Notes: generated from the letters alone by a model not told the origin. Counted from the stretch's first letter, positions 12,363 to 59,873 are shown. The stretch: DNA of 64,000 bases from a virus (IMGVR_UViG_3300023174_009216); one strand, 5' to 3'. Made by a program: numbers and translations.

Positions 12363-12458
12363 TCATATTTCTTTTTTATCTTTTCTATGTATTTTTATTC
12401 TAACTCCGAAGAATGTAAAAAACACAATAACAAAAATAAATCCTATAATTAATTTCAT
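12363..12458 (-). CDS. small hydrophobic peptide (31 aa)
   Basis: ATG preceded by the conserved upstream motif AAAACAATAGAAAGTT. Encodes MKLIIGFIFVIVFFTFFGVRIKIHRKDKKEI. Below the ORF-track length cutoff. Confidence 0.3.
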   Translation of the reverse strand: MKLIIGFIFVIVFFTFFGVRIKIHRKDKKEI

Positions 12459-12464
12459 AACTTT

Positions 12465-12674
12465 CTATTGTTTTACGTAGTCCATTGTTTCTCTCATTTT
12501 TGCAATCAATGCTTCCATGCTTTCAGTATTCAAATATAATCTACCATTGTGATAGTCGTCAGCACTTTCTTTAAATTCTATAACGATACCATCGAATTCA
12601 GGTGTAGGCTGTATTCTAATGTCCTGATCGTTTTCTGTTGTGATTTCTGTTTTTATCCAGACTTTACTTTTCAT
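12465..12674 (-). CDS. hypothetical protein
   Basis: 69 aa acidic ORF inside the tRNA region. Confidence 0.4.
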   Translation of the reverse strand: MKSKVWIKTEITTENDQDIRIQPTPEFDGIVIEFKESADDYHNGRLYLNTESMEALIAKMRETMDYVKQ

Positions 12675-16707: not shown

Positions 16708-16728
16708 TTATTATTTTTGTTCCCCCTA

Positions 16729-16823: not shown

Positions 16824-16987
16824 AGCTTATGTCTTTCGTTTTCGTTTCATATCTTCTTTACTTTTTTGTAATAGCTTCATAAAATCTTCAATCTCTTCTG
16901 ATCCAATTTTATACTCTTTGGATTTTGATTTTTTTAAATCATCGAATGTTGAATATTTAGTTAGCTTTTTCATTTTCATTTTTTATG

Positions 16988-21291: not shown

Positions 21292-21771
21292 TTAAAGTGT
21301 TTTTAATTCTTGCTTAACTAACGTAAGTGCTTGTCCTAGAAGGTTTAATCCTAACCAAAAAGATGGATTATTAATACCTTCGGCATCTTCTGCTAATCCT
21401 ATTCCCCAGATGTGGTCCAAAGGTGATGCCTCTACAAACACCTTATCTCCTGTTTCTAGCATTTGTTCTTTAAGGTCTTGGTTCTGACTGAACTTAGCTA
21501 GATTACCTTCGTATACAATTGACAAGCAATTCTTATCCCAGGTGGTTTTGTCAAAGTTTTTAATCATTCTACCAAATCTTTTTTGTTCTCTGGGATTTGA
21601 TTCTTGCATGATTTGTTCAGCGATTTCTGTGTCGCCAAATAGCAAGGCTTTCTGATGCATCATGTATTGTTCGCATGAGTTGTATTCACGGCCATCGATG
21701 GTCATGTTAGCTTTATGCCATTGGGAATATATCCCATTCCAAAAAAATACGTAGTTGTCTGTTATTTTCAT
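21292..21771 (-). CDS. NADAR-domain protein (YbiA-like N-glycosidase)
   Basis: FFWNGIYSQWH...SCEQYMMHQKALLFGD...RFGRMIKNFD...EASPLDHIWGIGL follows the NADAR (DUF1768) pattern. Confidence 0.7.
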   Translation of the reverse strand: MKITDNYVFFWNGIYSQWHKANMTIDGREYNSCEQYMMHQKALLFGDTEIAEQIMQESNPREQKRFGRMIKNFDKTTWDKNCLSIVYEGNLAKFSQNQDLKEQMLETGDKVFVEASPLDHIWGIGLAEDAEGINNPSFWLGLNLLGQALTLVKQELKTL

Positions 21772-25327: not shown

Positions 25328-27067
25328 CTATTTTATTTTTTGAGAGTCATCTATCCAAGGTTCTATCTTTTTCATAATTTCATCTTTTGCATCAATCATT
25401 GCCATCACACGTTCATAAATACCAGGACTTTCCTCATAGAGATTTCTCCAGGATGGGTCTTTATCCCATCTATTTTTAAAGTCCAGCATTCTTATAAAAT
25501 TTCTAATAGTTGCTTCTGCAACTTTTCCCATAAATTCTGAATCAGGACTAGGAAATATAGCATCAAATACTTCGATAGAAACCCTATTCATTAATCCACC
25601 AGCAATTCTTGGATTCGAATTCTCATTTCCCCTGAAAGCATCTTTAATGGCATTCATTTCTCTCTCCCCAGCATTTAATAAAATACCCTGTATAACAATT
25701 TTAAAGAATATTGATTTAATTTCATTAAAAGAATCATCACTAGTATATCGATAAGAGCTCTTAATAAAATTATTAACAGCTTGGCCTATATTACGGTTAT
25801 CCCTATAGAAATCATCAGTTACTTTCTTTAATGCGAATTCCTCCCTAAAAACCCTTTTGATCTCATCAATCATTTCCTGCGGGTATCCTAATCTCTTTAG
25901 CTGATCATAGTACTTCTCACCATTCTGTTTTATATTATCATTATTAATATCACTAGACGAATAAACACCTCCGTCTTCAGAGATTGTTACACCTATAAGA
26001 TGTAATTTATCGCTCTCAGGAACCCCAAAATTAAATATATTAAGTTGAACTCTTCCACCTGCGTATGACCAGAATCTGGTGTCATTAATACACCAGGTAC
26101 CTGCAATAGAACATAATCCTTTCTGAGCATCCTCTGATCTTATAGAAAGAGCTACATATTGACCATCCTCATATAAGATAGCAACCCCAGGTTTCAGGGA
26201 TTCTGCATCTTTCAATATTTTATTGATATTAGATCCCATGGATTCTATAAATTTTTCCCCAAATTTTATAAGGGATTTAATAGAATCATAAGAAGATACT
26301 CTACTAAGAAATCTTTTTTTGATTGTTTCCGATTCTTCAGCAGCCTCTATTTTGGTTGCTATGTTGATGATCTTTTGTTTATCTTCTGGTCCTGATTTTC
26401 TATATTCATCCTTAAGGTTAACAACTCTACCCGCCACATATAAAGGATTACGAGGATCTGAAGCTGCACTGGTTGGGAGTGCATCTACAAGCCATCTAGC
26501 ATCTCTTTCTTTACCAATCTCCCTTAATGCATCTTCGAGCATCTCAAATCCAGATCTAATCTCAGATTGTGAATTGACCTTTTCAATTTGAGATTTTATT
26601 CCCTCTATTCTATCTACATCACCTGATTTTTCAGATCTCATTAAATCAGATTCTAGTTTTTTTAAGGTCTCTGATTTTGGAAGAATCTTAGCATATTGCT
26701 CAATATTCATTGGAAGACTTCCAAGGAAAGGTGCATATGTTCCTAATTTATTTTTAAGAACCACTAGGTCAGGAAGAGAAACATCCTGATCAAAGTGAAA
26801 TCTAACAAAAGCATTTAACAATCCCTGCTGATCAGCAACTATAGAATTTTTAATTTCTAAATATTCTTTATTGGAAAGTATTGCTATTTCTTCTTCTTTT
26901 GTTACCTCCGATGGTTTCTTTTTAGAAAACTTATTTATCATGAAGGATTTAGCTGCCTGTACGTTCTCATTTAAGATTTTTAAATAATCTTGGTTTTCCC
27001 ATGAAGATCCTATTCTTTTTATATTTTCATTCAGAGAAAAACTTTTAAAATTCTTAATTCTTTTCAT
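25328..27067 (-). CDS. putative capsid-targeted (CTS-like N-terminus) large protein, paralog A
   Basis: Start set at ATG 27067 giving MKRIKNFKSFSLNE (the track begins at an upstream GTG). Long blocks shared with 27092..28888, e.g. RSGFEMLED...ARWLVDALP..AASDPRNPLYVAGRVVNLKD. Confidence 0.6.
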   Translation of the reverse strand: MKRIKNFKSFSLNENIKRIGSSWENQDYLKILNENVQAAKSFMINKFSKKKPSEVTKEEEIAILSNKEYLEIKNSIVADQQGLLNAFVRFHFDQDVSLPDLVVLKNKLGTYAPFLGSLPMNIEQYAKILPKSETLKKLESDLMRSEKSGDVDRIEGIKSQIEKVNSQSEIRSGFEMLEDALREIGKERDARWLVDALPTSAASDPRNPLYVAGRVVNLKDEYRKSGPEDKQKIINIATKIEAAEESETIKKRFLSRVSSYDSIKSLIKFGEKFIESMGSNINKILKDAESLKPGVAILYEDGQYVALSIRSEDAQKGLCSIAGTWCINDTRFWSYAGGRVQLNIFNFGVPESDKLHLIGVTISEDGGVYSSSDINNDNIKQNGEKYYDQLKRLGYPQEMIDEIKRVFREEFALKKVTDDFYRDNRNIGQAVNNFIKSSYRYTSDDSFNEIKSIFFKIVIQGILLNAGEREMNAIKDAFRGNENSNPRIAGGLMNRVSIEVFDAIFPSPDSEFMGKVAEATIRNFIRMLDFKNRWDKDPSWRNLYEESPGIYERVMAMIDAKDEIMKKIEPWIDDSQKIK

Positions 27068-27091: not shown

Positions 27092-28888
27092 CTACTTAGA
27101 TTTAAGGGTTTTTTTGGAAAATTTATTAGACATAAATGATGAGGAGTTTAAACTTTCTTTTATTTTGTCGCCTTCAATACTTTGATCATTACCTAGCCAT
27201 GGTTTTATCTTATCTATGATCTCATCTTTTGCTTCTATCATTGCAGATAGTTGTCCATAAAAATCTGGACTGGAATTGAACTTAGCTTTAAACCCAGGTT
27301 GAGTGTCCATTCTATCCTTAAGATTCGTCATTGCGCTAACATTTTTAAGAGTTGCTTCAGCAACCTGTTTCATAAATTCAGGCTCGGGATTAGGATATAT
27401 TGTATCAAATAATTCTATAGCAGTGGTGTTCATTATACCGCCTGCAATATTTCTTGATGGGTCTCCAGTGAAACATTTTCTAACAAGTTCCATTTCATTT
27501 TTACTCTTAAGCATGTTTAATTCTATATTTTGTTTAAGAATTTGATAGAATATAGATTTAACAGACTCAAATGCAACTTTGTTTTCGTAAATATAGGAAA
27601 CCCTAAGAAATTTATTAATAGATTCTGAGAGGCTTTTGCCATCTTTATAAAAATCATCGGTTAGTGACTTTACCTTGTGCTCTTGATCAAAGTATTTTTG
27701 AATCTCACTTATCATAATATTAGGATAGCCCATTCTAGCAAGCTGCTCGTAATACTTTTCTGAACCATTACTTATTCTGGAGTCATTAACATCATGTGAT
27801 GTTGTAACTTTTCCATCTTTAGCTATTGTTATACCTATTAAGAAAAATCTATCCGTTGGTGCCAGCTCAAAATTAAAAACAGCAAGTTGTATATTTCCTT
27901 TTGCATAACTCCAAAATGCTCCTCTATTAATACACCAGTTAGCAGCACCGCATAATTCTTTCTGAGCATCCTCTGATCTTAATGAAAGAGCTACATATTG
28001 TTCATCGCTATACATAATAGCAACCCCTGGATATAGTGCTTCAGCTTGTTTTAAAAGCTTATCAGTATTACCACCAAGTGCTTTAGAGAAAGATGATGCA
28101 GTGATAGATAGATTCTCTATAGAATCAAATGCTGATATCTTTTTTAAAAATCTCTCCTTATTTTCCTCTGCATTTTCAGATTTAGCTATTATGCTTCCTG
28201 CATTAATAATCTGATTTTTTAACTCAGGATCTGCATTTCTATATTGATCTTTAAGATTAACGACCCTACCTGCCACATATAAAGGATTACGTGGATCAGA
28301 AGCTGCATTGCTAGGAAGAGCATCTATAAGCCATCTAGCTTCTCTTTCCTTCTCGATGTATGCTAATTCATCATCTAACATTTCAAATCCTGATCTGATA
28401 TCTGTTTCTTCCTGTGCTCTAACAGATTTTATTTGATTCATTACTCCTTCTATTCTGGCTTCGTCACCAGATTCTTGCGCTTTTCTTAAAGTATTCTCTA
28501 GCTTTTTTATCTTTTCCGCTTTTGGCTCATATACAATTTTAGCATACTCGTCTATATTCTTAGGTAGACCTCCTAGAAAATTTTTATAGGTTTCTAAATT
28601 ATTCCTAAGACCTATTAAATCTTCTAAAGATTTACCTTGATCAAAATGGAATCTAACAAAAGCATTAACCCATCCTGGATATTTAGCACAGATTACATTT
28701 TTAATCTCCTGGTATTCTTTATTGGAAAGGATCTCTATCTCTTCCTCTTTTGATACAGGTGTTTTCTTAGCGAATTTTTTGAGCATGAATGCTTTAGCTG
28801 CTTGCACGTTTTCGTTTAAATTTTTTAGATAATCTTCTTTTTTTCTCTCATTAAGGAAAAAACCTTTGAAATCTTTAATTCTTTTCAT
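27092..28888 (-). CDS. putative capsid-targeted (CTS-like N-terminus) large protein, paralog B
   Basis: MKRIKDFKGFFLNE N-terminus. Tandem paralog of 25328..27067. Confidence 0.6.
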   Translation of the reverse strand: MKRIKDFKGFFLNERKKEDYLKNLNENVQAAKAFMLKKFAKKTPVSKEEEIEILSNKEYQEIKNVICAKYPGWVNAFVRFHFDQGKSLEDLIGLRNNLETYKNFLGGLPKNIDEYAKIVYEPKAEKIKKLENTLRKAQESGDEARIEGVMNQIKSVRAQEETDIRSGFEMLDDELAYIEKEREARWLIDALPSNAASDPRNPLYVAGRVVNLKDQYRNADPELKNQIINAGSIIAKSENAEENKERFLKKISAFDSIENLSITASSFSKALGGNTDKLLKQAEALYPGVAIMYSDEQYVALSLRSEDAQKELCGAANWCINRGAFWSYAKGNIQLAVFNFELAPTDRFFLIGITIAKDGKVTTSHDVNDSRISNGSEKYYEQLARMGYPNIMISEIQKYFDQEHKVKSLTDDFYKDGKSLSESINKFLRVSYIYENKVAFESVKSIFYQILKQNIELNMLKSKNEMELVRKCFTGDPSRNIAGGIMNTTAIELFDTIYPNPEPEFMKQVAEATLKNVSAMTNLKDRMDTQPGFKAKFNSSPDFYGQLSAMIEAKDEIIDKIKPWLGNDQSIEGDKIKESLNSSSFMSNKFSKKTLKSK

Positions 28889-40001: not shown

Positions 40002-40890
40002 TTAATTACTTAGAGGTGCTTTGATTGCTGGATGTGATTGATAGTTTTCTAATTGAAAATCTTTTGGATCTAGGTGACCATATAGAGATTGGTTTTCTGA
40101 TAGAGATTTGTAAAACTCATCTGTCTTCATGTGTTTTAATGTAGGTAATTCAAAAGGCTGTCTTGTTCTTTTCGGAATGTTAGCTTCCATAAATTCTTGA
40201 CGTTTACCATCAACCAATGCGTCCATGCCAGTTTTTTGCAGAAACTCTATTCTTTCTTCTTCCGTGTATTCTCTACCTATCTGCTCTTTAGCCTGCTCAA
40301 TGTGGTTGCTATAAAGGTGTACATCACCCAAGTTACCAATCAATTCATCAGGAACCATGTTGACTTCTTTGGCTATGATTTCAAGTAGTAATCCATAAGA
40401 TGCTATGTTGAATGGTAAACCAAGGAAGGTATCTACTGAGCGTTGATTCCACATTAATGAGATTGCTCTGGTTGGAACTCTACTTGCTCTCATATCATCT
40501 TCTTCATTTTCTAACCCTGCTTCTAAACGTTCTAAAACTACATTATTCTTTTTACACCAGTCTCTTCTTTCTTCCAAACTCAACTCTCTCGTATATACTT
40601 GAAATCCATAATGACAGGGTGGCAAAACCATTGAATCCAAATCTGAACAGTTCCAGCTATTAACCATTAATCGTCTTGAGTCAGGATTTGTTTTGAGTTC
40701 AGAGATTAGGTTTGCGATTTGGTCTATTCTATATGTTGACATTCTCATCTCTGACCTATCAATACCTCTCCAATTTCTCCACTGCTTTCCGTATATTGGT
40801 CCAAGGTCTCCAAATCGATCAGAAAATTCTTTGTTTGTTTTAATTTTTTCTACAAACTCTTCTTTAGTATAAGGCCTTCCTTCTGGGTGT
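40002..40890 (-). CDS. thyA: thymidylate synthase, 3' exon / C-terminal portion (5' boundary approximate)
   Basis: GDLGPIYGKQWRNW, MVNSWNCSDLDSMVLPPCHYGFQVY (active-site PPCH) and GDVHLYSNHIEQ match ThyA. The N-terminal ThyA region is absent from this ORF and found at 41571..41831. Confidence 0.7.
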
Positions 40891-41570
40891 AAATGTTCTT
40901 TATTCATAAGTTTATTTTTTATATTCCCATTTGTAATTTCCTGATGATTTTCTTTTTCCTTTACACACATTACATATATTACTAGCCGCTAATTTTAATT
41001 CCCTTTGTATATCTGCTAAGCTATCCCATGTTTTAATATATTCATCATTTAAAGTGTATTGGTTTATTTTAATACTAGAAAAATGCAATACCCCAATTTT
41101 TTCAAACATACCATGATTCTCTCCAGATATTAAATAACCCTTGCCAAACATCGGATTGTTTTTACCGATCCTTTTACCTTTCCTGTTTTTCCTCATCAAT
41201 GATTTTGTATCTTCTGAGTGTTTACCGTTGCTACCTGGATCTTTTATATTCAACATTTCAAATTCACAATCTTTATATTGTTGCCAATAATATATCTCAT
41301 AATCATTTAGAATGGTTTGTGATACATCTTTTGGAAGTATTGTAAGAATTTGAAATTTATGATTTTCCCATCCGTATTTAATTATTGAATTATATAGCTT
41401 TTTTTGGCGACTGCAATGAGTTTTTTCATATTGATTAATTCTCCTTCTAATACACCAACTTTGGCCTATATAAATTTTATTTGTTGGGCTAACGATTTTG
41501 TATATTGCTATCATCAATCCTTATTTTGTTTCTCTAATCTTTCGCACTCTTTCAAATAAGCTTGATAACA
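40891..41570 (-). mobile_element. putative group I intron (or intervening mobile insertion) carrying a GIY-YIG homing endonuclease ORF within thyA
   Basis: ThyA N-terminal and C-terminal coding parts are separated by about 680 nt that encode a GIY-YIG/NUMOD protein. Architecture mirrors the T4 td intron with I-TevI. Splice sites not determined. Confidence 0.5.
40912..41514 (-). CDS. GIY-YIG homing endonuclease with NUMOD3-like motifs
   Basis: AIYKIVSPTNKIYIGQSWCIRRR...H (GIY-YIG core) plus GKRIGKNNPMFGKG and GENHGMFEK repeats. ATG at 41514 overlaps the TGA of the upstream thyA reading frame. Confidence 0.75.
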   Translation of the reverse strand: MIAIYKIVSPTNKIYIGQSWCIRRRINQYEKTHCSRQKKLYNSIIKYGWENHKFQILTILPKDVSQTILNDYEIYYWQQYKDCEFEMLNIKDPGSNGKHSEDTKSLMRKNRKGKRIGKNNPMFGKGYLISGENHGMFEKIGVLHFSSIKINQYTLNDEYIKTWDSLADIQRELKLAASNICNVCKGKRKSSGNYKWEYKK

Positions 41571-41831
41571 GTCCCCAGTCCAGATGTTGCAATCGTTATC
41601 CAGCAAATACTTCAAATCAGACCGTCCTTGCAAAAACCACAATAGTTCTGTTACAACTCCTTTAAAATAAAGTTTTTTGGTGGTTAAAGCAGGAAACCCG
41701 GTTTTCATATCATGTCTTATGGTTATTCCAAAGACACTTAAAGTACCGGTTCCTGTTCGGTCTTTCTTTTCAACTCCATTATCAAGAATATCTTGTAAAA
41801 GAGCTTGATAATCTAAATCTAATTTATTCAT
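41571..41831 (-). CDS. thyA: thymidylate synthase, 5' exon / N-terminal portion (3' boundary approximate)
   Basis: [12 protein letters not shown]...GFPALTTKK...ELLWFLQG...NIW is the conserved ThyA N-terminus. The frame runs on to a stop at 41514 inside the insertion. Confidence 0.7.
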
Positions 41832-41847
41832 AACTTTCTATTGTTTT
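41832..41847 (-). promoter_or_regulatory. conserved translation-initiation-region motif AAAACAATAGAAAGTT immediately 5' of ATG
   Basis: Same 16-mer (coding-strand sense) abuts the ATG of seven small minus-strand genes: 12459, 41832, 42196, 42463, 42691, 43602, 44107. Confidence 0.5.
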
Positions 41848-41988
41848 ATTTGATTAACTACACTTACTATACTCTTCATCCAAGCACCCATAATATCTCT
41901 TCTTCCGAACAATACATTCCATATTGACATATCAGCATCCCAGATTTCTTTTGGCACTTCTACTTTAATAACTTGTCTATTCTTCATA

Positions 41989-42195
41989 TTATTTATTTTT
42001 TATTTTTGTAGTTAATAAATGATATTTTTGACAATGACAACATTTATATGCGACTAATTTAGTATCGGGTTTTGGGTCTTTCCCATTCACTATTTTAGCC
42101 GCGGCTATTGCGGCATTGTCAGTATCATAGGATTTCTTTGGTATTCCATTTCTTGATATACAAGTAAATTTACCTTTATCAACACATTTAACCAT
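41989..42195 (-). CDS. small zinc-ribbon protein
   Basis: CxxxxC...CCHC pattern. 68 aa. Conserved upstream motif. Confidence 0.4.
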   Translation of the reverse strand: MVKCVDKGKFTCISRNGIPKKSYDTDNAAIAAAKIVNGKDPKPDTKLVAYKCCHCQKYHLLTTKIKNK

Positions 42196-42210
42196 AACTT
42201 TCTATTTTTA
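42196..42210 (-). promoter_or_regulatory. conserved upstream motif instance (AAAAATAGAAAGTT-ATG)
   Basis: Variant of the 16-mer directly 5' of the 41989..42195 ATG. Confidence 0.45.
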
Positions 42211-42462
42211 ATCTAATCTTGTTAGTTTATCGTGTATTTTTGAAATCATTTCAATTTGTTCACCTCTCAAAAATTTAATTTCACCTGTTTCGTCATTTCT
42301 GATAAAAACACCAGCACCCAAACCTCTCTTACTTATTCTTTCATCCACCGCTAGATAATAAGTTTCGGTGTTCCGAAATGCATCAAGTGTAACTTGGCCA
42401 ACGGGAGTTAATAAGATTTCTCCTAAGAACGGATCTTTATGTTTTATGGGTTCTTTATTCAT
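42208..42462 (-). CDS. hypothetical protein
   Basis: 84 aa ORF. Conserved upstream motif at 42463..42480. Confidence 0.45.
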   Translation of the reverse strand: MNKEPIKHKDPFLGEILLTPVGQVTLDAFRNTETYYLAVDERISKRGLGAGVFIRNDETGEIKFLRGEQIEMISKIHDKLTRLD

Positions 42463-42468
42463 AACTTT

Positions 42469-42690
42469 CTATTGTTTGTTTAAAATATAACCTCTATAGT
42501 ATTTGGTGCCATATCCTTTATAGTCTTTATAGACATAAAGAATAGCATCGTCTTTTATTTCAGAAAACCCTCGGGGATATGTTTGTACGGTAATCATCTT
42601 CCAATTACCATCCATCGGTACATAGCTAACTTCTGTTGGGTTATCTAAGTTAATTAAAAATGTTGGTTGGGCTACTTCTATTTTATTCAT
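42469..42690 (-). CDS. hypothetical protein
   Basis: 73 aa ORF. Conserved upstream motif variant at 42691..42710. Confidence 0.45.
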   Translation of the reverse strand: MNKIEVAQPTFLINLDNPTEVSYVPMDGNWKMITVQTYPRGFSEIKDDAILYVYKDYKGYGTKYYRGYILNKQ

Positions 42691-43001
42691 AACTTACTAT
42701 TATTGTTTATCTGTTCGTATAACTCTTTTAGTTTGTCCTTGAAAGCGGTCATCACTATGTCTACTGCTATGAGATGTCCATGTGGGCTAAACATATCTTC
42801 ACAGAGTTGGCATCCTAAGAAAACATTCTCTTCAAGGCCTAGCATGGTCATTTTAGTTGAAACGCCAAGTTGCCCAATTGGATAATGTTCTGATGGTTCT
42901 GTTCTCGTCATTTCACCTATGAACTCTACTTCCAAACCATCATTAACTCGTTTCATTAAGTCAACGGCTGCAATGATGATAGGACTGATTTCGTTATTCA
43001 T
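42687..43001 (-). CDS. hypothetical protein
   Basis: 104 aa ORF. Confidence 0.45.
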   Translation of the reverse strand: MNNEISPIIIAAVDLMKRVNDGLEVEFIGEMTRTEPSEHYPIGQLGVSTKMTMLGLEENVFLGCQLCEDMFSPHGHLIAVDIVMTAFKDKLKELYEQINNNSKL

Positions 43002-43007
43002 AATCTT

Positions 43008-43601
43008 TTAATTTAATCTTTTTGATATGTTTTCATTTATTTTCTCACCCAGCTTCCAACCTTCTATCTCATCCTCTTTAATCTGTATGTTTATATCATT
43101 ATTAAGAAATCTATATGCCTTGTTGGTGTATTGATAATAAACATATCCATGTTTTTCAAAATCAAGGGGTCTTCCGTAAGATACAGTAAATTCAAATTCT
43201 TTGCCATTAGTGTCAACTGTTTTAAATGTGCCGCCATAAAAATCTTCAACAATTTCAGGTAATTCAAATTCTTTATGAATTGTCAAATAACAATCCAAAT
43301 AGGTGTCATGTGAGAACGCCCACCACGATTCTTCATATTTTATATGACCAAGATACTTTTGCATAAGGTTCGGTTTCTTTGAATTCAAATCCCCTCCATA
43401 TAAACTAACCAATGTGATTGTTGCAATTTCTTCGTTATTTACAATCAATGGAAAAGAATAAACAAAATAAGGATAATCACGCTTTTCCAAATCAAGTGGT
43501 GTATTCGCTTTTTTGTTATTCCAATCTAAAAGAATTTGTTCTGGATTTTTGTCAGTACATTGTTTTATTATATCTAAAACTTCGGGTTCATTATAATTCA
43601 T
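43008..43601 (-). CDS. hypothetical protein
   Basis: 197 aa ORF. Conserved upstream motif at 43602..43620. Confidence 0.5.
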   Translation of the reverse strand: MNYNEPEVLDIIKQCTDKNPEQILLDWNNKKANTPLDLEKRDYPYFVYSFPLIVNNEEIATITLVSLYGGDLNSKKPNLMQKYLGHIKYEESWWAFSHDTYLDCYLTIHKEFELPEIVEDFYGGTFKTVDTNGKEFEFTVSYGRPLDFEKHGYVYYQYTNKAYRFLNNDINIQIKEDEIEGWKLGEKINENISKRLN

Positions 43602-44106
43602 AACTTTCTATTGTTTTGTTGGTTGGGATGTTATTATCATCCATAACTTTAATATGTCCTGATGGATAATGTAACATAGCAGATTCAGCTTCTAATTTTT
43701 TTCTTAGTTCTAAATTTTTGTAAGCAATCTTAAACCGTTCATCATAGCTCAACTCTCTAGTTATTGTGATTAGTTTGGTTGGGATATCATTTTCATCATA
43801 TTGATTATGTGTATAGATATTACCGACAGGATTATGTGTATTATTCCATATTGTTGCTCTTTCTTCCAAACTCAACTCCCTTTCCTCAATCTTTAATCCC
43901 CACCTTTCACTGAACTCCGGGTCAGTTTTACATTTGATGATAAACTCTTCTTGTGAGTAATGAACATAATTAGGATATCCGCTATTAAATTCAAGTCCAT
44001 CTGATTTGAAATGTTTACCTCTATCACTAAAAGTAATTGAACCTATTAAAGTGGTGCAGTAATTCTCATACGCCTCACTCAATAATTCTTGTTGTTCGTT
44101 ACTCAT
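43591..44106 (-). CDS. hypothetical protein
   Basis: 171 aa. N-terminus MSNEQQELL is shared with the next small ORF. Conserved upstream motif at 44107..44122. Confidence 0.5.
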   Translation of the reverse strand: MSNEQQELLSEAYENYCTTLIGSITFSDRGKHFKSDGLEFNSGYPNYVHYSQEEFIIKCKTDPEFSERWGLKIEERELSLEERATIWNNTHNPVGNIYTHNQYDENDIPTKLITITRELSYDERFKIAYKNLELRKKLEAESAMLHYPSGHIKVMDDNNIPTNKTIESYEL

Positions 44107-44112
44107 AACTTG

Positions 44113-44244
44113 TTATTGTTTTATTAAATCCTCAACCATTTTATCAAAAGGACATTTAACACCTTGCTGTCCTTCGACACAACTGTGTGGGCATTGATGG
44201 CAAGGTTTGAATTCAAATAATAATTCTTGTTGTTCGTTATTCAT
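44113..44244 (-). CDS. small Cys-rich protein (43 aa)
   Basis: Below the ORF-track cutoff. MNNEQQELLFEFKPCHQCPHSCVEGQQGVKCPFDKMVEDLIKQ. Same N-terminal heptapeptide as the 43591..44106 product. Confidence 0.3.
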   Translation of the reverse strand: MNNEQQELLFEFKPCHQCPHSCVEGQQGVKCPFDKMVEDLIKQ

Positions 44245-44500
44245 TTTCTGCTATGTTTTCAATGTAATGTTTAACAATATAATCAGGAGCTGGAAGTATA
44301 TCAAGTCTGTGAGCCGTCTCAGTAAGTCCAAAACTTTCATCAGTCATTAGCTCTTCTCTTAAACTGTCTGCATCTGTTTTTGTTGGCTTGTTCCAATATC
44401 CACAGAAATGCAGTATGTCCAGCATTTCGCCTTCTTGCAGTGGATCGATAACGATCAATCCATATTTTATGTCTTTTGGGTTGTGTTGCTCATTAGCCAT
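44237..44500 (-). CDS. hypothetical protein
   Basis: 87 aa acidic ORF. Confidence 0.4.
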   Translation of the reverse strand: MANEQHNPKDIKYGLIVIDPLQEGEMLDILHFCGYWNKPTKTDADSLREELMTDESFGLTETAHRLDILPAPDYIVKHYIENIAENE

Positions 44501-44625
44501 TGATGATAGCTTTAAGACGTTTAATCTCTGAGATTACATCATCTCCAAGTTCAATCTTGGACATCATTGACAAGTCCACTATTTGGTTTTCTAAGATTTC
44601 AATTAATTGTGTTTTTGCTTCTTCT

Positions 44626-45210
44626 TTATTCATGATTTTCTATTTTATCTTCTAATTCTTCTAAACGTTTTTCTAGACTGCTAATCGTAGTATTGACTAT
44701 TTTAGCTTCTGGATCTAATTCTTTGATTCTCTGTATCAAATCATCTCTGTGTCCCTCTTCGTAGAATTTACCTGCTATAGCACTTTTAAGAGATTCCATT
44801 TGTTGAGTTCCGCTTATTGATATTCTGAGATCATAATCGCTCCATTTAGTTTTATAATCCCAGATAAGGAATCCTCCAGTGATTCTATTTTGTAAATCAT
44901 GAAGCCATCTATTTCTAACTCTCACTATGCTTTTATCGGACCCAAACAAATGTAAAAATCTAAGAAACCATCTTGGACACCACCACGGCTTAGCTTTATA
45001 ATCCATAAAGATAACTAGTGGCTCCATTGCTTTAAAAATATTTCCTCCTTCATTCCATGGCACTGAACCAAGATATCCATATTTTTCATTAAAGTCTTTA
45101 GGAAAAAATATCTCCCTGATATCATCTAAGACTATATTCCTTGTGTGTACTGGTCCGCTCTTTGCCTTCTTACCTTTAAAGATAACTATATCCTTTATTT
45201 TTTTACTCAT
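44626..45210 (-). CDS. hypothetical protein
   Basis: 194 aa ORF. Confidence 0.45.
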   Translation of the reverse strand: MSKKIKDIVIFKGKKAKSGPVHTRNIVLDDIREIFFPKDFNEKYGYLGSVPWNEGGNIFKAMEPLVIFMDYKAKPWWCPRWFLRFLHLFGSDKSIVRVRNRWLHDLQNRITGGFLIWDYKTKWSDYDLRISISGTQQMESLKSAIAGKFYEEGHRDDLIQRIKELDPEAKIVNTTISSLEKRLEELEDKIENHE

Positions 45211-46827: not shown

Positions 46828-47082
46828 TTATACTACTAATTTATCCGGGCTAATATCATGTTCATTTAGAATTTCCCAGAATTTGTCATATATTTTATCG
46901 AGTAATTCATACTCAGCAGCTATTGTGCTATCTTTGGCTTGAAGATCCCATACCATACTCTTTCTAGAGTTATATACAAACTCCCAGATAGACATTGCCA
47001 TGCCATATGACTTGGCTGCACGTTCAAATTCCAAGAGATCGTCAGGATCGGTTAGATCAAATTCCAGTATTGCTTTTGCCAT
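46828..47082 (-). CDS. hypothetical protein
   Basis: 84 aa ORF. Confidence 0.4.
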   Translation of the reverse strand: MAKAILEFDLTDPDDLLEFERAAKSYGMAMSIWEFVYNSRKSMVWDLQAKDSTIAAEYELLDKIYDKFWEILNEHDISPDKLVV

Positions 47083-47146
47083 TTTAATTTATTTAAACAA
47101 ATGTAATAATTTTTAAGGGGAATAAAAAATGTAAAATATTATCTTT

Positions 47147-54782: not shown

Positions 54783-57293
54783 TTATACTATATACCAGTT
54801 TGCGTTATTAGATACTAAAGAGATTGCTGCATATTGAACTAAAAGTGTTGCTGTTGTTCCGTCATCTATTTTTTCAGTACCGCTTCCGTCTACTATTACT
54901 GAGTTAGCACCAGAGTCAGTTTTTTTAATTGTAAACTTAGCGGTGTTTCCCACAGCAGTTGGCAAGTTAATTGTTACTGTACCTCCTGCAGTTGCAGCAT
55001 CAACTAATATAATAATTTCACCAGAAGTTTGAGATGCATTATAAGTGGTGGAACTTTGTGATACTATTGTGTATGATCCACCAATACCAGATGTACCGGA
55101 AGATCCACTTGTTCCGGTAGATCCAGATGTACCAGAAGAACCAGAGCTTCCAGTTGATCCTGAAGAACCAGAAGAACCTGATGTCCCAGAAGAACCATTA
55201 GCACCTGATGTTCCAGAGGATCCAGATGTACCAGAAGAACCAGAGCTTCCAGTTGATCCTGAAGAACCAGAAGAACCTGATGTACCTGAAGAACCAGAAG
55301 AACCTGATGTACCAGAAGAACCATTAGCACCTGATGTTCCAGAGGATCCAGATGTACCAGAAGAACCAGAGCTTCCAGTTGATCCTGAAGAACCAGAAGA
55401 ACCTGATGTCCCAGAAGAACCATTAGCACCTGATGTCCCAGAGGATCCAGATGTACCTGAAGAACCAGATGTCCCAGAAGAACCATTAGCACCTGATGTT
55501 CCAGAGGATCCAGATGTACCAGAGGAACCAGAGCTTCCAGTTGATCCTGAAGAACCTGATGTACCAGAAGAACCATTAGCTCCTGATGTTCCAGAGGATC
55601 CAGATGTACCAGAAGAACCAGAGCTTCCAGTTGATCCTGAAGAACCAGAAGAACCTGATGTACCAGAAGAACCATTAGCACCTGATGTTCCGGAAGAACC
55701 AGAAGAACCTGTTGATCCTGAAGAACCAGATATACCAGATGTTCCGGAAGAACCTGAAGAACCTGTTGATCCTGAAGAACCTGATGTACCAGAAGAACCA
55801 CTAGCGCCTGAAGTACCGGATGTACCAGAAGAACCATTAGCACCTGATGTTCCAGAGGATCCAGATGTACCTGAAGAACCTGATGTACCAGAAGAACCAT
55901 TAGCTCCTGATGTTCCGGAGGATCCAGATGTACCAGAGGAGCCAGAGCTTCCAGTTGATCCTGAAGAACCTGATGTACCAGAAGAACCATTAGCTCCTGA
56001 TGTTCCGGAGGATCCAGATGTACCAGAAGAACCATTAGCTCCTGATGTTCCGGAGGATCCAGATGTACCAGAAGAACCATTAGCACCTGATGTTCCGGAG
56101 GATCCAGATGTACCAGAGGAACCAGAGCTTCCAGTTGATCCTGAAGAACCTGATGTACCAGAAGAACCATTAGCACCTGATGTTCCGGAAGAACCAGAAG
56201 AACCTGTTGATCCTGAAGAACCAGATATACCAGATGTTCCGGAAGAACCTGAAGAACCTGAAGAACCTGAAGATCCGCTTGTTCCAGAAGAGCCATTAGC
56301 ACCTGATGTACCTGAAGAACCTGTTGATCCGGAAGAACCTGTTGATCCGGAAGATCCTGATGTTCCTGTAGATCCTGAACTACCTGTTGAACCAGATGAT
56401 CCTGATGTACCTGTAGATCCTGATGTACCGCTTGAGCCAGAAGAACCTGATGTACCAGAGGAGCCTGTTGATCCTGATGTACCCGATATACCAGATGATC
56501 CAGAAGTTCCTGATGAACCATTAGCTCCTGAAGTTCCTGATGAACCATTAGCTCCTGATATTCCAGATGTCCCTGATGTACCAGGTGATCCTGTTCCTGA
56601 CGTTCCAGAAGAACCTGAATTTCCAGAAGATCCTGATGATCCATTAGATCCAAGAAACATCCAGGATATGGAATATTCTTTTCCTACTTGTAAACTTCCA
56701 TTGTATGATAATGCACTAAATAATGTATATTCAACAGTATTAACATCACTTAATGCCACATCGCTAACAATATAAATCCCACCAACTGTGTGATCATTAA
56801 CTTCAACTAGTTGGAGTATTAATTTTTGATTGTTGTTATCCTCCCAATTCTTAGCTGCATTATGCCAGTTATCTATAACTGACCCATAGACATCAAAATC
56901 ATAGCTAATTCCAAATTTAGTAACAGAAGATAATGTAGAGCTATTAGCTTGGAAGCTCCCATCGCTAACAGATCCAACTAAAGGTCCTTCATATTGAAAT
57001 CTTAAAGAATTACCTCCATCATTTCCTGTTTGTCCTGATGATCCCGATGTTCCACTAATTCCAGAGGATCCTGATGATCCGCTTTCCCCCGATGTTCCAG
57101 ATGTGCCATATGTTGCTCCAGATGTACCAGAAACACCAGAAGATCCCGATGTTCCTGTACCACCTCCTGAAATTTGTATCTCATCCCCTAGGCCATTATA
57201 AAATGTCCCATCATCTGATCTCTGGACAACGTGTTGAAATGTCTCAGAAATCTTTTGATTGGTAAGATTAAAATTCGGATTATTTCCAGGCAT
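54783..57293 (-). CDS. collagen-like (Gly-X-Y triplet repeat) fibre protein
   Basis: 836 aa. Central region of about 530 aa is uninterrupted G-S/T/A/N-S/T triplets (GSS GTS GSS GST ... GAN GSS GTS). Globular N- and C-terminal domains. Confidence 0.65.
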   Translation of the reverse strand: MPGNNPNFNLTNQKISETFQHVVQRSDDGTFYNGLGDEIQISGGGTGTSGSSGVSGTSGATYGTSGTSGESGSSGSSGISGTSGSSGQTGNDGGNSLRFQYEGPLVGSVSDGSFQANSSTLSSVTKFGISYDFDVYGSVIDNWHNAAKNWEDNNNQKLILQLVEVNDHTVGGIYIVSDVALSDVNTVEYTLFSALSYNGSLQVGKEYSISWMFLGSNGSSGSSGNSGSSGTSGTGSPGTSGTSGISGANGSSGTSGANGSSGTSGSSGISGTSGSTGSSGTSGSSGSSGTSGSTGTSGSSGSTGSSGSTGTSGSSGSTGSSGSTGSSGTSGANGSSGTSGSSGSSGSSGSSGTSGISGSSGSTGSSGSSGTSGANGSSGTSGSSGSTGSSGSSGTSGSSGTSGANGSSGTSGSSGTSGANGSSGTSGSSGTSGANGSSGTSGSSGSTGSSGSSGTSGSSGTSGANGSSGTSGSSGTSGSSGTSGANGSSGTSGTSGASGSSGTSGSSGSTGSSGSSGTSGISGSSGSTGSSGSSGTSGANGSSGTSGSSGSSGSTGSSGSSGTSGSSGTSGANGSSGTSGSSGSTGSSGSSGTSGSSGTSGANGSSGTSGSSGTSGSSGTSGANGSSGTSGSSGSSGSTGSSGSSGTSGSSGTSGANGSSGTSGSSGSSGTSGSSGSSGSTGSSGSSGTSGSSGTSGANGSSGTSGSSGSSGSTGSSGSSGTSGSTGTSGSSGTSGIGGSYTIVSQSSTTYNASQTSGEIIILVDAATAGGTVTINLPTAVGNTAKFTIKKTDSGANSVIVDGSGTEKIDDGTTATLLVQYAAISLVSNNANWYIV
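55060..56660. repeat. nucleotide tandem repeats encoding the Gly-X-Y region
   Basis: Near-identical 9/27/45/63-nt periodic units, e.g. ggatccagatgtaccagaagaaccattagcacctgatgttccagag recurring many times. Confidence 0.8.
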
Positions 57294-58715: not shown

Positions 58716-59873
58716 TTAAAAAAGTGCTTTAACTAAAAGTAAATTAGGGGAGAGCGGTTGATATCCCATAACTTCTATAAATCTATTGATGGGATCTAAG
58801 ATGGTACGGTTAAATTGTGCATCAAAATCTATAGGAGGTGCAAGTTCGTATGGATAAGCTCCGTTTAAATAGCCGAAGACATTGTTTTCTTGCTCGCTAT
58901 TGACCGCTACAAAGTAATACTTGATTTTCTCTGATGAACGAATTAGCGAGTATTTTGCCTTGTATTTTGAGTTATTAAGGATATAGTTATGATACCCAGA
59001 TGCTCTAACATGCATAGGGCATCCTTTTGCTACCTCAAATCCTGTTGTATCGTTTAGAATAAATTTTTCTATATTATTAACACCAACACCTATAGAGATA
59101 GCATCAGGCTTCTGAATCTTAAATTCAGATTTAATTTCCCTTAGCATTTTTACAAACGTCCTTAGATCAAAATTTTTACCTGTTTGGAAGATATGCTTAA
59201 GTAAAAGAATAAGTTTTTCTCTTGCAAATGGAGGGGTTCCTCCTTGAACTATTTCAATACCTGTGGGCTTAATTCTTGAAAGATCAGCATAATGTTTTCC
59301 TGGTGCTTCGTATGTTAGATTAACAATGTACTTTTTCTTACCTAAGAAAACCGCATTTCTTGATATGGTTTCCAGTTCAAAGTCTTGGTGATTATCAGTG
59401 CTCCATTTCTTAGCATAAACATTAAAACAATTGTTTAAATATTCAGCTAATCTGTTCTTGTTTATATTTAAAATAAGATCAAGAGGTTCACAATCAAATT
59501 CACATGAAGCTATAATATTTCCAAAGTTAACATAGTTAGAATCTGTGTCTGCATAAATTATCATTTCTGCTGTTACAGGTCTAACATTTCTAGCACCTAT
59601 TTTTTCATGAAGCTCTGTGTCTAAATGCCAATGCTCATGAAAATACCTATTGATTACTTTCTCTGCAAACTTAACAAGATCCTGTCCCTGAAGGGTTACG
59701 CTTTCTGCAACATCAGAATTGAAGCATGCAAAGTAGGCGTTTCCCGTTGCTCCGTAGATACTATTAAGTGTTAGCTTAATTCCTTGTTCTTCGTTTTTAT
59801 AATCCGCAGACATCTTTTTAAGCCTGCTGATTTCCTTCTTGATTTCTTCAACACTTAATTCTTCGTAATTCAC
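58716..59873 (-). CDS. DNA polymerase B family, C-terminal fragment (T4 gp43-like, motifs B and C only)
   Basis: EEQGIKLTLNSIYGATGNAYFACF...TLQGQ...YADTDSNYV aligns with T4 gp43 ERQGRKILINSLYGALGNIHFRYY...GDTDSVYV. Lacks motif A and the exonuclease domain. 385 aa. Confidence 0.75.
   Translation of the reverse strand: MNYEELSVEEIKKEISRLKKMSADYKNEEQGIKLTLNSIYGATGNAYFACFNSDVAESVTLQGQDLVKFAEKVINRYFHEHWHLDTELHEKIGARNVRPVTAEMIIYADTDSNYVNFGNIIASCEFDCEPLDLILNINKNRLAEYLNNCFNVYAKKWSTDNHQDFELETISRNAVFLGKKKYIVNLTYEAPGKHYADLSRIKPTGIEIVQGGTPPFAREKLILLLKHIFQTGKNFDLRTFVKMLREIKSEFKIQKPDAISIGVGVNNIEKFILNDTTGFEVAKGCPMHVRASGYHNYILNNSKYKAKYSLIRSSEKIKYYFVAVNSEQENNVFGYLNGAYPYELAPPIDFDAQFNRTILDPINRFIEVMGYQPLSPNLLLVKALF

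What the first reader, a model, noticed from the sequence alone, without database searches (positions are those of the whole stretch)
41832..44122. Identical 16-nt motif AAAACAATAGAAAGTT abutting the ATG of seven small genes (block of early-type ORFs)
On the coding (minus) strand the sequence (A/C)AAACAATAGAAAGTT-ATG, or a 1 to 3 mismatch variant, directly precedes the start codons of seven genes: 12363..12458, 41571..41831 (thyA exon 1), 41989..42195, 42208..42462, 42469..42690, 43008..43601 and 43591..44106. The motif overlaps the 3' end of each preceding gene and contains no GGAGG Shine-Dalgarno. A conserved element this close to the ATG suggests a shared translation-initiation/enhancer element, a leaderless-type promoter, or an RNA-binding-protein (RegA-like translational repressor) operator governing a regulon of small early proteins.
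Basis: seen in the sequence. Interest (0 to 1): 0.65.

Follow-up and report, generated by a model that had tools for sequence, protein, structure and literature searches.

The report
Stop-start linker between phage gene cassettes
A roughly 25-base sequence that ends one small gene in any reading frame and starts the next is repeated between swappable genes of unknown function in a group of uncultured large freshwater phages, and it most likely serves as a portable gene joint rather than the switch of a gene regulon.

Summary
Seven copies of AAAACAATAGAAAGTT-ATG (0-3 mismatches) lie on the minus strand, each abutting a start codon, against 0.15 expected by chance. Two decayed copies sit in the same block.

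The element runs from about -16 to +8/+9: A-rich tract, TAG, AAAGTT, ATG, A-R-TAA. It acts at the nucleic-acid level, because upstream genes end inside it in all three frames.

It is specific to one uncultured phage clade. It occurs in more than 120 viral and more than 119 metagenome contigs. No isolated phage has it, and bacterial genomes show only chance-level single hits.

It marks junctions in hypervariable arrays of unannotated small genes, built around a 4,200-member protein family whose 3' end encodes it. Its presence depends on context, not on the gene: orthologues, including thyA, occur with and without it. It is confined to one or two regions per genome.

My best reading (about 0.45) is a portable three-frame-stop plus restart linker. 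It would couple translation in a host that lacks Shine-Dalgarno sites and would provide homology for cassette shuffling.

A RegA-like operator or a leaderless promoter is not excluded, but neither gained support. No RegA, phage RNA polymerase or sigma factor was found in the sequence available.

The parts
44104..44122 (-). Linker copy AAAACAATAACAAGTT-ATG (2 mismatches). Its TAA at -9 is the stop of the upstream gene 44113-44244. The ATG starts the family gene 43591-44106.
43599..43617 (-). Exact linker copy. The upstream family gene reads through it as KTIESYEL and stops at +9..+11. The ATG starts 43008-43601.
42688..42706 (-). Linker copy ACAATAATAGTAAGTT-ATG (3 mismatches). The upstream gene 42687-43001 stops at the overlapping ATGA. 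The ATG starts 42469-42690.
42460..42478 (-). Linker copy CAAACAATAGAAAGTT-ATG (1 mismatch). Its TAG is the stop of 42469-42690. The ATG starts 42208-42462.
42193..42211 (-). Linker copy TTAAAAATAGAAAGTT-ATG (3 mismatches). The upstream gene 42208-42462 stops at a TAA inside the A-rich part. The ATG starts 41989-42195.
41829..41847 (-). Exact linker copy. Its TAG is the stop of 41838-41987. The ATG starts the N-terminal part of thyA.
12456..12474 (-). Exact linker copy outside the block, inside the tRNA region. Its TAG is the stop of 12465-12674. The ATG starts a 31-aa hydrophobic ORF at 12363-12458.
42999..43017 (-). Decayed copy ATTAAATTAAAAGATT-ATG-AATAA. It keeps a stop at -9 (TAA, used by 43008-43601), the TGA at +2 and the TAA at +6. 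It starts 42687-43001.
   Evidence: repeat family D5
44242..44260 (-). Decayed copy GAAAACATAGCAGAAA-ATG-AATAA. It has TAG at -9 and TGA at +2. The TAA at +6 is used by the upstream gene 44237-44500. It starts 44113-44244.
   Evidence: repeat family D4
43591..44106 (-). Member of the multicopy family (N-terminus MxNEQQELL, core EEFIxKCKTDPEFSERWGLKIEERELSLEER, C-terminus IPTxKTIESYE). The last codons of this family are the linker.
41838..43601 (-). Six cassette genes with no recognised family, joined by linkers: 43008-43601, 42687-43001, 42469-42690, 42208-42462, 41989-42195 and 41838-41987. Each is found in only 0-10 of about 190 related loci. Five of the six have no Pfam or PHROG match; 41989-42195 has one weak match to an unannotated PHROG.
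44113..44244 (-). 43-aa chimera: the family N-terminus MNNEQQELL fused to a small unrelated CxxC protein. This is consistent with recombination in the conserved 5' part of the junction.
41514..41831 (-). N-terminal part of thymidylate synthase, the last gene served by a linker in the block. The end of the exon was not determined.
47098..47105 (-). TACATTTG, a Bacteroidota-type -7 promoter box (TAnnTTTG) with a T-rich stretch upstream. It lies in the 64-nt gap before 46828-47082. It is the likely start of the transcript that runs through the block, since no gap or terminator follows it.

Best explanation
The element is a portable stop/start linker for gene cassettes. In about 25 nt it holds an unstructured A-rich tract, a stop codon in each reading frame (TAG at -9, TGA inside ATGA, TAA at +6) and an ATG.

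Any upstream ORF, in whatever frame, therefore terminates within 9 nt of the next start. A ribosome that terminates there can restart on the next cassette without a Shine-Dalgarno site. This suits a Bacteroidota-type host, whose ribosomes ignore SD sequences.

Because the same sequence flanks many unrelated cassettes, it also offers a patch of identity where phage recombination can swap, insert or delete cassettes without breaking ORFs. Those exchanges would in turn keep the copies alike. It probably arose from the overlap between tandem copies of the multicopy family (...KTIESYE* / MNKEQQ...).

Shown here: the anatomy, independence from reading frame, use of all three stops, sharp borders, restriction to one phage clade and to arrays, presence that depends on context, and mosaic flanks.

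Inferred, not shown: restart of translation at the ATG, and recombination within the element.
For: 1. Frame independence. Upstream genes stop at -9 (TAG or TAA), at +2 (ATGA) or at +6 (TAA). All three frames are used within the window.

2. Three-frame closure. The test set was chosen without reference to the motif: 72 loci, 1.13 Mb, 142 distinct copies. Stops are present at -9 in 83%, at +2 in 94% and at +6 in 76% of copies. All three are present in 99 of 142. Other gene starts show 9%, 61% and 13%.

3. Unused stops are kept. The +6 stop is present in 20 of 26 copies whose upstream gene uses -9. The -9 stop is present in 79 of 87 copies whose upstream gene uses +6.

4. Positions +4 to +8 are conserved as nucleotides, not as amino acids. 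The second codon is AAT in 58% and AGT in 23%, against 7% and 5% in the background. AAC is only 3%.

5. A discrete unit. When the upstream gene is not a family member, similarity to the consensus drops to background exactly upstream of -16 (69 cases, few intermediates).

6. Presence follows context, not gene. Of 40 protein clusters, 0 always carry it, 11 are mixed and 29 never do. About 15 of 57 thyA starts carry it.

7. Local distribution. Copies sit in runs of 2-6 consecutive genes. Each long contig has them in one region. The 20 kb flanking the window holds no further copies.

8. Mosaic flanks. Among pairs of copies that share one flank at 80% identity or more, 62 of 68 are unrelated on the other side. 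At junctions without the motif the figure is 96 of 139. A chimeric gene starts at 44244.

9. Expression context. The region is unstructured (mean MFE -2.2 kcal/mol for -30..+30, against -7.6 for random 60-mers). The window lacks SD sites. A host-type promoter lies upstream, and there are no gaps or terminators within the block.

10. Not a host signal. Bacterial and archaeal genomes give only 119 single hits, at chance level.
Against: - Stops plus a start do not explain why -16..-10 and -6..-1 are nearly invariant across phages whose thyA genes share only 65-80% identity. That degree of identity is more typical of a site read by a specific protein. Otherwise it needs frequent recombination or gene conversion, which was not shown.
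- A 28-nt AT-rich stretch closes all three frames by chance about 14% of the time (my own estimate), so the three-frame property could be incidental.
- G at -3 departs from the A at -3 that favours initiation in Flavobacterium (PMC7797042, citing Baez 2019).
- The excess of mosaic flanks over other junctions is modest. It rests on non-independent pairs and ungapped comparison, and part of it may reflect paralogy.
- Nineteen to 28 nt is short for homologous recombination.
- No expression data exist.
Confidence: 0.45

Rival explanations
1. The element is the operator of a phage-encoded RNA-binding protein that represses or activates translation, working like T4 RegA on initiation regions. The protein would bind the unstructured A-rich sequence across the AUG and switch the cassettes off or on together.
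For: - The element spans -16..+9 around the AUG, is unstructured and has a 5' A-tract. These are the hallmarks of RegA sites (PMC3014915).
- It shares GUUAUG with the RegA SELEX consensus aaAAUUGUUAUGUAA.
- Near-invariance of about 19 nt across diverged phages fits sequence-specific recognition.
- One lineage has its own variant, ATAGAAGTTT-ATG, in all its copies, as expected if site and factor co-evolve.
- G at -3 makes the site unlike ordinary starts.
Against: - There is no RegA homologue in the window (best E-value 0.94) or in 2.59 Mb of clade loci. The query was confirmed 100% identical to T4 RegA, and RegA is readily found at 42% identity or more across T4-like phages.
- The sites are not spread over unlinked genes, as they would be in a regulon. 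They lie in one or two arrays.
- Orthologues do without the site.
- 87 of 142 copies are just the 3' end of one family gene.
Confidence: 0.2
2. The element is a promoter for a phage-modified or phage-encoded RNA polymerase that starts at or just before the ATG. Each cassette would then be its own leaderless or near-leaderless transcription unit.
For: - The fixed zero spacing to the ATG is what leaderless promoters show.
- An extent of -16..+9 resembles single-subunit polymerase promoters, which span about -17 to +6 (my own knowledge).
- AACA and TATG recall the AR9 (AACA-6N-TA/G) and phiKZ (TATG) non-virion polymerase promoters (PMC5312081).
- Small early phage genes often each have their own promoter, as in the PeSL cassettes (PMC2839356).
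- In L013 a host-type -7 box lies 2 nt upstream of the element, so at least there the element would be the whole 5' leader.
Against: - No RNA polymerase or sigma gene was found in 84 kb of this genome.
- The element is not distributed like a temporal promoter class: 7 copies in 84 kb, 6 of them adjacent.
- It does not fit the host box TAnnTTTG or a sigma-70 type -10.
- With AR9 spacing, AACA-6N is followed by AG, not TA or TG.
- The phage has another, better-distributed promoter-like motif, GATATATAA.
- The conserved stops in unused frames have no role in a promoter.
- Contig ends in metagenome data show no fixed relation to the motif.
Confidence: 0.12
3. The element has no function of its own. 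It is the conserved 3' end of the multicopy family gene, carried along by tandem duplication and deletion. The ATG abuts it only because family genes overlap their neighbour by ATGAATAA.
For: - 87 of 142 copies have a family gene upstream in the KTIESYE* frame.
- Upstream of -16 these copies vary most at third codon positions, as expected for protein-level selection.
- When no gene follows, the ATG decays to ACG or ATA while the SYE*/SYK* reading is kept.
- thyA naturally begins ATGAATAA.
Against: - Five of the seven window copies, and about a quarter to a third of copies in the unbiased set, lie between two non-family genes in other frames.
- Those copies have a sharp border at -16 rather than remnants of variable length.
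- Within the element the third codon positions are as conserved as the others.
- The element is far better conserved than the coding sequence around it.
Confidence: 0.13
4. The element is an RNA processing site. A host or phage endoribonuclease would cut upstream of each cistron, either inactivating it (as T4 RegB does) or creating short-leader mRNAs.
For: - It lies in the initiation regions of probable early genes, as RegB sites do (PMC3014915).
- It is long and single-stranded.
- The phage carries RNA-repair-type genes: an RNA ligase and a cyclic-phosphate processing domain.
Against: No nuclease candidate is linked to the arrays. The same objections about local distribution and context-dependent presence apply as for the operator. 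There are no 5'-end data.
Confidence: 0.05
5. The element is an alternative Shine-Dalgarno-like site. UAGAAAG would pair with the extreme 3' end of 16S rRNA (...CCUCCUUUCUA).
For: There is a 7-nt complementarity to the 3' tail as I recall it for Firmicutes and Bacteroidota. This is a recollection, not a test.
Against: - The pairing would end 2 nt from the AUG, about 9 nt too close for normal SD geometry.
- The 3' tail is sequestered in Bacteroidota ribosomes (PMC7797042).
- G at -7 is the least conserved core position, with TAA and TTG variants.
- Host genomes do not use the motif.
Confidence: 0.03

Closest known systems
PeSL cassettes (promoter-early stem-loop) of T4-type phages (Arbiol et al. 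2010, PMC2839356; Comeau et al. 2014, PMC4122927)
   Same: Both are short conserved sequences repeated between small unannotated genes in hypervariable regions of large virulent phages. Both combine an expression signal with a homology patch for modular shuffling. In both, flanks are mosaic at the repeat.
   Different: A PeSL is intergenic and consists of a host sigma-70 promoter plus a GC-rich stem-loop terminator. The element here overlaps both neighbouring ORFs, is unstructured, has no host-type promoter boxes, spans the start codon and closes all three frames. It works at the level of translation and ORF junctions, if it works at all. PeSL recombination was shown experimentally through mini-circles; here recombination is only inferred.
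T4 RegA translational operators (Uzan and Miller 2010, PMC3014915)
   Same: Both overlap the AUG of early-type genes, are A+U-rich with a 5' A-tract and are unstructured. They share GUUAUG with the RegA SELEX consensus.
   Different: RegA sites are poorly conserved and spread over about 30 unlinked mRNAs, including replication genes. This element is nearly invariant, clustered in cassette arrays and dispensable for orthologues. No RegA homologue was found.
Translational coupling by overlapping stop/start signals (ATGA, TAATG) and termination-reinitiation in bacteria and phages (general knowledge; scanning-reinitiation model of Adhin and van Duin 1990, recalled from memory)
   Same: The stop of the upstream gene lies within a few nucleotides of the next start. 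ATGA is part of the element.
   Different: Ordinary overlaps are 4-5 nt and specific to one frame. This is a conserved unit of about 25 nt that provides a stop in every frame and is reused between unrelated genes across hundreds of contigs.
Phage polymerase promoters with conserved start regions (T7-like -17..+6; AR9 non-virion polymerase AACA-6N-TA/G; phiKZ TATG; PMC5312081)
   Same: The length and degree of conservation are similar, and AACA and TATG substrings are present.
   Different: The spacing does not fit. No phage polymerase was found. The copies are not distributed over operons.
Integron attC gene cassettes
   Same: Both are arrays of promoterless small cassettes separated by a repeated junction sequence.
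   Different: attC sites are imperfect palindromes recombined by an integrase. Here there is no inverted repeat or predicted structure, and no integrase appears in the neighbourhoods examined.

Membership tests
T4 RegA operator / RegA regulon | A RegA protein (Pfam Translat_reg) is encoded by the phage | tested here: inconclusive
   tblastn with T4 RegA (the query was shown to be 100% identical to X00769) gave nothing in the window (best E-value 0.94) and nothing at E<=1 in 2.59 Mb of clade loci. No strong Pfam hit appeared among the window ORFs. However, only about 84 kb of a genome of 200 kb or more could be read.
T4 RegA operator / RegA regulon | The site overlaps or abuts the AUG, is A+U-rich with a 5' A-tract, and is unstructured | tested here: met
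   The element spans -16..+9. Mean MFE for -30..+30 is -2.2 kcal/mol, against -7.6 for random 60-mers. Criteria were taken from PMC3014915.
T4 RegA operator / RegA regulon | Sites lie on many unlinked early mRNAs and are loosely conserved | tested here: not met
   Copies are clustered in one or two arrays per genome and are nearly invariant. Presence is not tied to particular genes.
T4 RegA operator / RegA regulon | Protein binding represses translation | not testable with these tools
   This needs binding and reporter assays.
PeSL mobile regulatory cassette | Lies in hyperplastic regions and flanks unannotated genes (ORFans) | tested here: met
   Five of the six cassette genes have no Pfam or PHROG match; 41989-42195 has one weak match (E 2.4e-4) to an unannotated PHROG. 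Each occurs in only 0-10 of about 190 related loci. The arrays lie within long runs of small genes.
PeSL mobile regulatory cassette | Contains a host-type early promoter consensus | tested here: not met
   There is no TAnnTTTG or -33 box in the element, and no sigma-70 type match above background in the block.
PeSL mobile regulatory cassette | Contains a stable stem-loop terminator and is intergenic | tested here: not met
   The element is unstructured and has no inverted repeat at the junctions. It overlaps both neighbouring ORFs.
PeSL mobile regulatory cassette | Recombination between copies shuffles cassettes | tested here: inconclusive
   Flanks are mosaic in 62 of 68 pairs, against 96 of 139 at other junctions, and there is a chimeric gene. 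These are indirect signs. No mini-circle or breakpoint data exist.
Phage RNA polymerase or sigma-factor promoter class (leaderless type) | The phage encodes its own polymerase or sigma factor | tested here: inconclusive
   None appears among the Pfam hits for 84 kb. The rest of the genome could not be read.
Phage RNA polymerase or sigma-factor promoter class (leaderless type) | Copies precede many operons of one temporal class across the genome | tested here: not met
   There are seven copies in 84 kb, six of them adjacent. Long contigs have them in a single region.
Phage RNA polymerase or sigma-factor promoter class (leaderless type) | Primary transcripts start at a fixed position in the motif | not testable with these tools
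   No transcript data were available. Metagenome contig ends show no fixed offset from the motif, which is weak evidence.
Shine-Dalgarno site | [quoted passage not shown] | tested here: not met
   The element has no GGAG, GAGG or AGGA. Only 4 of 86 window genes have one.
Bacteroidota Kozak-like start context (A at -3, -6, -12, -13; Baez 2019 via PMC7797042) | Adenines at -3, -6, -12 and -13 | tested here: not met
   The element has G at -3 and C at -12, with A at -6 and -13. Other window genes have A at -3 in 50 of 72 cases.
Integron attC cassette array | An imperfect palindromic recombination site and a nearby integrase | tested here: not met
   No inverted repeats or predicted structure. No integrase or recombinase domains appear in the neighbourhoods listed.

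The most novel reading that the evidence does not exclude
The element is the recognition site of an undescribed phage-encoded system, unrelated to RegA, that reads a sequence of about 25 nt spanning the start codon. The system could be an RNA-binding repressor or activator, or a factor that modifies the ribosome. It would give phages of Shine-Dalgarno-blind Bacteroidota a sequence-specific way to drive or shut off initiation on a swappable set of cassettes.
Probability: 0.2. Interest if true: 0.75.

Novelty: new variant of a known kind. Interest (0 to 1): 0.5.

Why it matters
How large phages gain, lose and express their many small unannotated genes is an open problem. So is how genes inside operons are translated in hosts that do not use Shine-Dalgarno pairing.

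This element would be a compact solution to both. It terminates any upstream frame, restarts translation, and offers homology for cassette exchange. It is abundant in freshwater metagenomes and has not been described in the literature I could search.

It also gives a simple handle for three tasks:
- finding hypervariable accessory arrays, which are possible anti-defence or host-takeover genes, in uncultured Bacteroidota phages;
- correcting start-codon calls in those arrays;
- testing termination-reinitiation in Flavobacterium with defined constructs.

If a dedicated factor reads the element instead, it would be a new kind of translational control.

Tried and rejected
1. Protein-coding explanation. 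Rejected, because upstream genes use all three frames, and third codon positions inside the element are conserved.

2. Host signal or mimic of a host regulatory site. Rejected. The scan of 185,579 species genomes gave 119 single hits at chance level. The few loci with several near-matches are in-frame repeats of leucine-rich-repeat type.

3. Known phage. Megablast and blastn against 50,697 phage records found nothing. Protein hits are only remote, to jumbo phages.

4. Using the band-7 gene to fetch relatives. This brought in unrelated phages that share only that gene, with no motif.

5. Antisense RNA. There are no reverse-complement copies: 149 on the gene strand against 0 on the other.

6. 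RNA structure or Rfam family. The region is unstructured, and the window holds only tRNA hits.

7. Function of the multicopy family. It has 4,202 homologues and no Pfam or PHROG match. The AlphaFold model has pLDDT 71, and there is no PDB fold match with E<=0.001.

8. Literature search by sequence strings found nothing relevant. The paper on bS21-encoding Bacteroidota phages mentions no such motif.

9. TAG read-through producing fusion proteins. No suppressor tRNA is among the 22 tRNAs, and the frames vary.

10. Contig-end enrichment as a proxy for transcript starts. No fixed offset was seen.

11. Persistence of the three-frame stop layout in decayed copies. It fades together with the sequence: all three stops are present in 70% of good copies, 21% of degenerate copies and about 1% of other starts. 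The layout is therefore not preserved separately from the sequence.


Full report
**Observation.** On the minus strand, AAAACAATAGAAAGTT or a variant with 1-3 mismatches lies directly before the ATG of seven ORFs. These ORFs start at 44106, 43601, 42690, 42462, 42195, 41831 and 12458. Taken as a 19-mer with the ATG, there are 7 matches at up to 3 mismatches. Dinucleotide-preserving shuffles give 0.15 on average, and none of 100 reach 7. The repeat finder recovers the family independently as a 28-nt repeat. It also adds two decayed copies, before the genes that start at 43001 and 44244. So eight of the nine consecutive gene starts from 44244 down to 41831 carry a version of the element.

**Anatomy.** To avoid circularity, I fetched 72 further loci (1.13 Mb) by the conserved core of a protein family found in the block, not by the motif.
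- Among 2,445 predicted gene starts, TAGAAAGTT is by far the commonest 9-mer at -9..-1, with 150 cases. Mismatches to the 16-mer are bimodal: 182 starts have 3 or fewer, while the background peaks at 9. All 182 are on the strand of the family gene.
- The 5' border is sharp. When the upstream gene is not a family member, similarity falls to background upstream of -16.
- The 3' border lies at about +8/+9. The second codon is AAT (58%) or AGT (23%), against 7% and 5% at other starts, while AAC is only 3%. The third codon is AAA in 52%. This is conservation of nucleotides (A-R-T-A-A), not of amino acids.
- The region is unstructured. Mean MFE for -30..+30 is -2.2 kcal/mol, against -7.6 for random 60-mers. 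It has no inverted repeats.

**Not a coding artefact.** Upstream genes end in the element in all three frames: at TAG or TAA at -9, at the TGA of ATGA, or at TAA at +6. Within the window the split is five, one and one. The element therefore carries a stop in every frame.
- In the unbiased set the three stops are present in 83%, 94% and 76% of 142 distinct copies. All three are present in 99 copies. Other starts show 9%, 61% and 13%.
- Stops that the upstream gene does not use are kept almost as often as those it does.

**Distribution.**
Allowing mismatches, 81 of 120 loci have two or more copies.
- No isolated phage has it.
- One genome from each of 185,579 bacterial and archaeal species gave only 119 single hits, about the chance rate. 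The few loci with several near-matches are in-frame protein repeats.
- The signal is therefore specific to a phage clade, not a host signal.

**The phage and its likely host.** The phage is an uncultured large virus, only remotely related to jumbo phages. Two contigs from the same sample abut inside the window, which suggests a genome of 200 kb or more. A host that does not use Shine-Dalgarno sites, probably Bacteroidota, is indicated by three things: SD-like 4-mers before only 4 of 86 genes, A at -3 in 50 of 72 ordinary starts, and TAnnTTTG boxes with T-rich upstream tracts in intergenic gaps.

**Genomic context.**
- The motif marks runs of 2-6 consecutive small genes inside much longer runs of small genes that lack it. 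It sits in a single region of each long contig. The 20 kb flanking the window adds no copies.
- The arrays are built around a family with 4,202 metagenomic homologues and no annotation or recognisable fold. The family's last codons, AAA ACA ATA GAA AGT TAT GAA TAA (KTIESYE*), are the element. In 87 of 142 copies this family gene is the upstream neighbour.
- The remainder, including five of the seven window copies, lie between unrelated genes in other frames.
- The cassette genes have no recognised family (only one weak match to an unannotated PHROG) and are patchily distributed.
- Presence of the motif depends on context. Among 40 protein clusters with five or more members, none always has it, 11 are mixed and 29 never have it. 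Only about 15 of 57 distinct thyA starts have it.
- Flanks are mosaic. Among pairs of copies that share one flank at 80% identity or more, 62 of 68 are unrelated on the other side, against 96 of 139 at other junctions. The gene at 44113-44244 is a chimera that begins with the family N-terminus.

**Mechanism.** The block lies downstream of a host-type promoter box at 47105, with no gaps or terminator-like sites in between. Its genes are therefore probably internal cistrons of an early transcript. This is an inference.

I propose that the element is a portable junction. It terminates the upstream ORF in whatever frame it arrives, within 9 nt of an ATG set in an unstructured A-rich context, so that the ribosome can restart without a Shine-Dalgarno site. 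Its identity across cassettes would provide the homology for insertion, deletion and exchange of cassettes, which in turn would homogenise the copies. The anatomy and distribution are shown. Restart of translation and recombination are inferred.

The main weakness is that stops plus a start do not by themselves explain near-invariance of -16..-10 and -6..-1 across phages whose thyA genes share only 65-80% identity. That level of conservation would fit a sequence-specific reader.

**Rival explanations.**
- *RegA-like operator.* This fits the position, composition and lack of structure, and even shares GUUAUG with the RegA SELEX consensus (PMC3014915). One lineage carries its own variant, ATAGAAGTTT, in all its copies. 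Against it, no RegA homologue is present in the window or in 2.59 Mb of related loci, and the sites are clustered and dispensable, not a regulon.
- *Leaderless or short-leader promoter.* This fits the fixed spacing and the length of the element. AACA and TATG recall the AR9 and phiKZ promoters (PMC5312081). Against it, the spacing does not fit, no polymerase or sigma gene is seen in 84 kb, the distribution is not that of a promoter class, and the phage has another, better-distributed candidate motif, GATATATAA.
- *Pure hitch-hiking of the family 3' end.* This is contradicted by the copies that lie between non-family genes and have a sharp border.
- *A processing site, or pairing with the 16S 3' tail.* Both remain possible, but nothing supports them.

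**Comparison with known systems.** The closest analogue is the PeSL of T4-type phages (PMC2839356, PMC4122927): a conserved regulatory sequence that flanks unannotated genes in hyperplastic regions and mediates shuffling. This element fails the defining PeSL features, since it has no host promoter, no stem-loop and is not intergenic. It is a different device with a similar evolutionary role. It also goes beyond ordinary ATGA/TAATG coupling, because it is a reusable unit of about 25 nt that closes every frame.

**Verdict.** The reading that the motif is tied to translation starts is supported, but the regulon reading is not. The element is a new variant of a known kind, and the finding is of moderate interest.

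**Caveats.** ORFs were called by a simple first-ATG rule. Some loci overlap or come from near-identical phages. The pair counts are not independent. No expression data were available.

Noticed in passing
window minus strand at 58703, 50977, 35669, 28942, 19358/19348, 17942, 17303, 15910, 10958, 8065, 7584, 1926; plus strand at 8150, 17644: A second repeated motif, GATATATAA (or AATATATAA, GATATATAC), lies 3-45 nt upstream of many start codons. It is probably a phage-specific promoter class, comparable to T4 late promoters. In two cases it sits only 3 nt from the ATG.
   Followed up: partly
window minus strand at 47105, 25121, 17329, 12965, 6352: Intergenic gaps hold a T-rich tract followed by TAnnTTTG, the Bacteroidota primary-sigma -7 box. 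Together with the near absence of SD-like sequences (4 of 86 genes), this points to a Bacteroidota host and to host-dependent early transcription.
   Followed up: partly
window 40002-41831 (-): Thymidylate synthase is split. The N-terminal part is 41514-41831 and the C-terminal part lies within 40002-40970. A 201-aa ORF of GIY-YIG homing-endonuclease type (40912-41517; judged by eye from IYIGQS and related motifs, not checked with a domain search) lies between them. Rfam finds no group I intron, so whether this is an intron or a split gene remains open.
   Followed up: partly
window 43591-44106 (-) and loci L262-L333: A small protein family (MNKEQQELL..., EEFINKCKTDPEFSERWGLKIEERELSLEER, ...IPTKLITITYNDKTIESYE) has 4,202 homologues in metagenomes. 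It is often present in several tandem copies per phage. It has no Pfam or PHROG match and no PDB fold match (model pLDDT 71). Its function is unknown.
   Followed up: partly
window 10969-17059 (-): A cluster of 22-23 tRNA genes includes three with a CAT anticodon, one of them 90 nt long. One linker copy and a 31-aa hydrophobic ORF are embedded in the cluster.
   Followed up: no
window about 55200-56000 (collagen-repeat gene 54783-57293): Two contigs from the same sample, of 117.7 kb and 88 kb, both end here. The genome is therefore probably 200 kb or more, and assemblies break at the collagen-like repeats. A related contig (L334) carries a different gene on the opposite strand at this place.
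   Followed up: partly
window 25328-27067 and 27092-28888 (-): Two adjacent ORFs of 579 and 598 aa both begin MKRI (ATGAAAAGAATT) and have no Pfam match. They appear to be tandem paralogues.
   Followed up: no
loci L303-L307, L317, L322, L332, L333: A lineage-specific variant of the linker, ATAGAAGTTT-ATG, changes the family C-terminus to KTIEVYE. In those contigs it replaces the canonical form in nearly all copies. This indicates concerted evolution or co-evolution with a reader.
   Followed up: partly
window 21768-23273 (-), 58716-59813 (-) and other ORFs whose positions were not resolved: The window encodes a NAMPT-type NAD salvage enzyme, a ribose-phosphate pyrophosphokinase (PHROG match), a NADAR domain, an Acb3-like CBASS inhibitor, an RNA ligase with a cyclic-phosphate-processing domain, TerC, and glycosyltransferases. 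This is an accessory and anti-defence repertoire. The family B DNA polymerase ORF is short (365-385 aa) and follows a 254-aa ORF, so the polymerase may be split.
   Followed up: no
window 44493-44633 (-): A 46-aa helical protein just upstream of the array is the most widely shared gene of the region. It is found in 36 of about 190 related loci. Its function is unknown.
   Followed up: no
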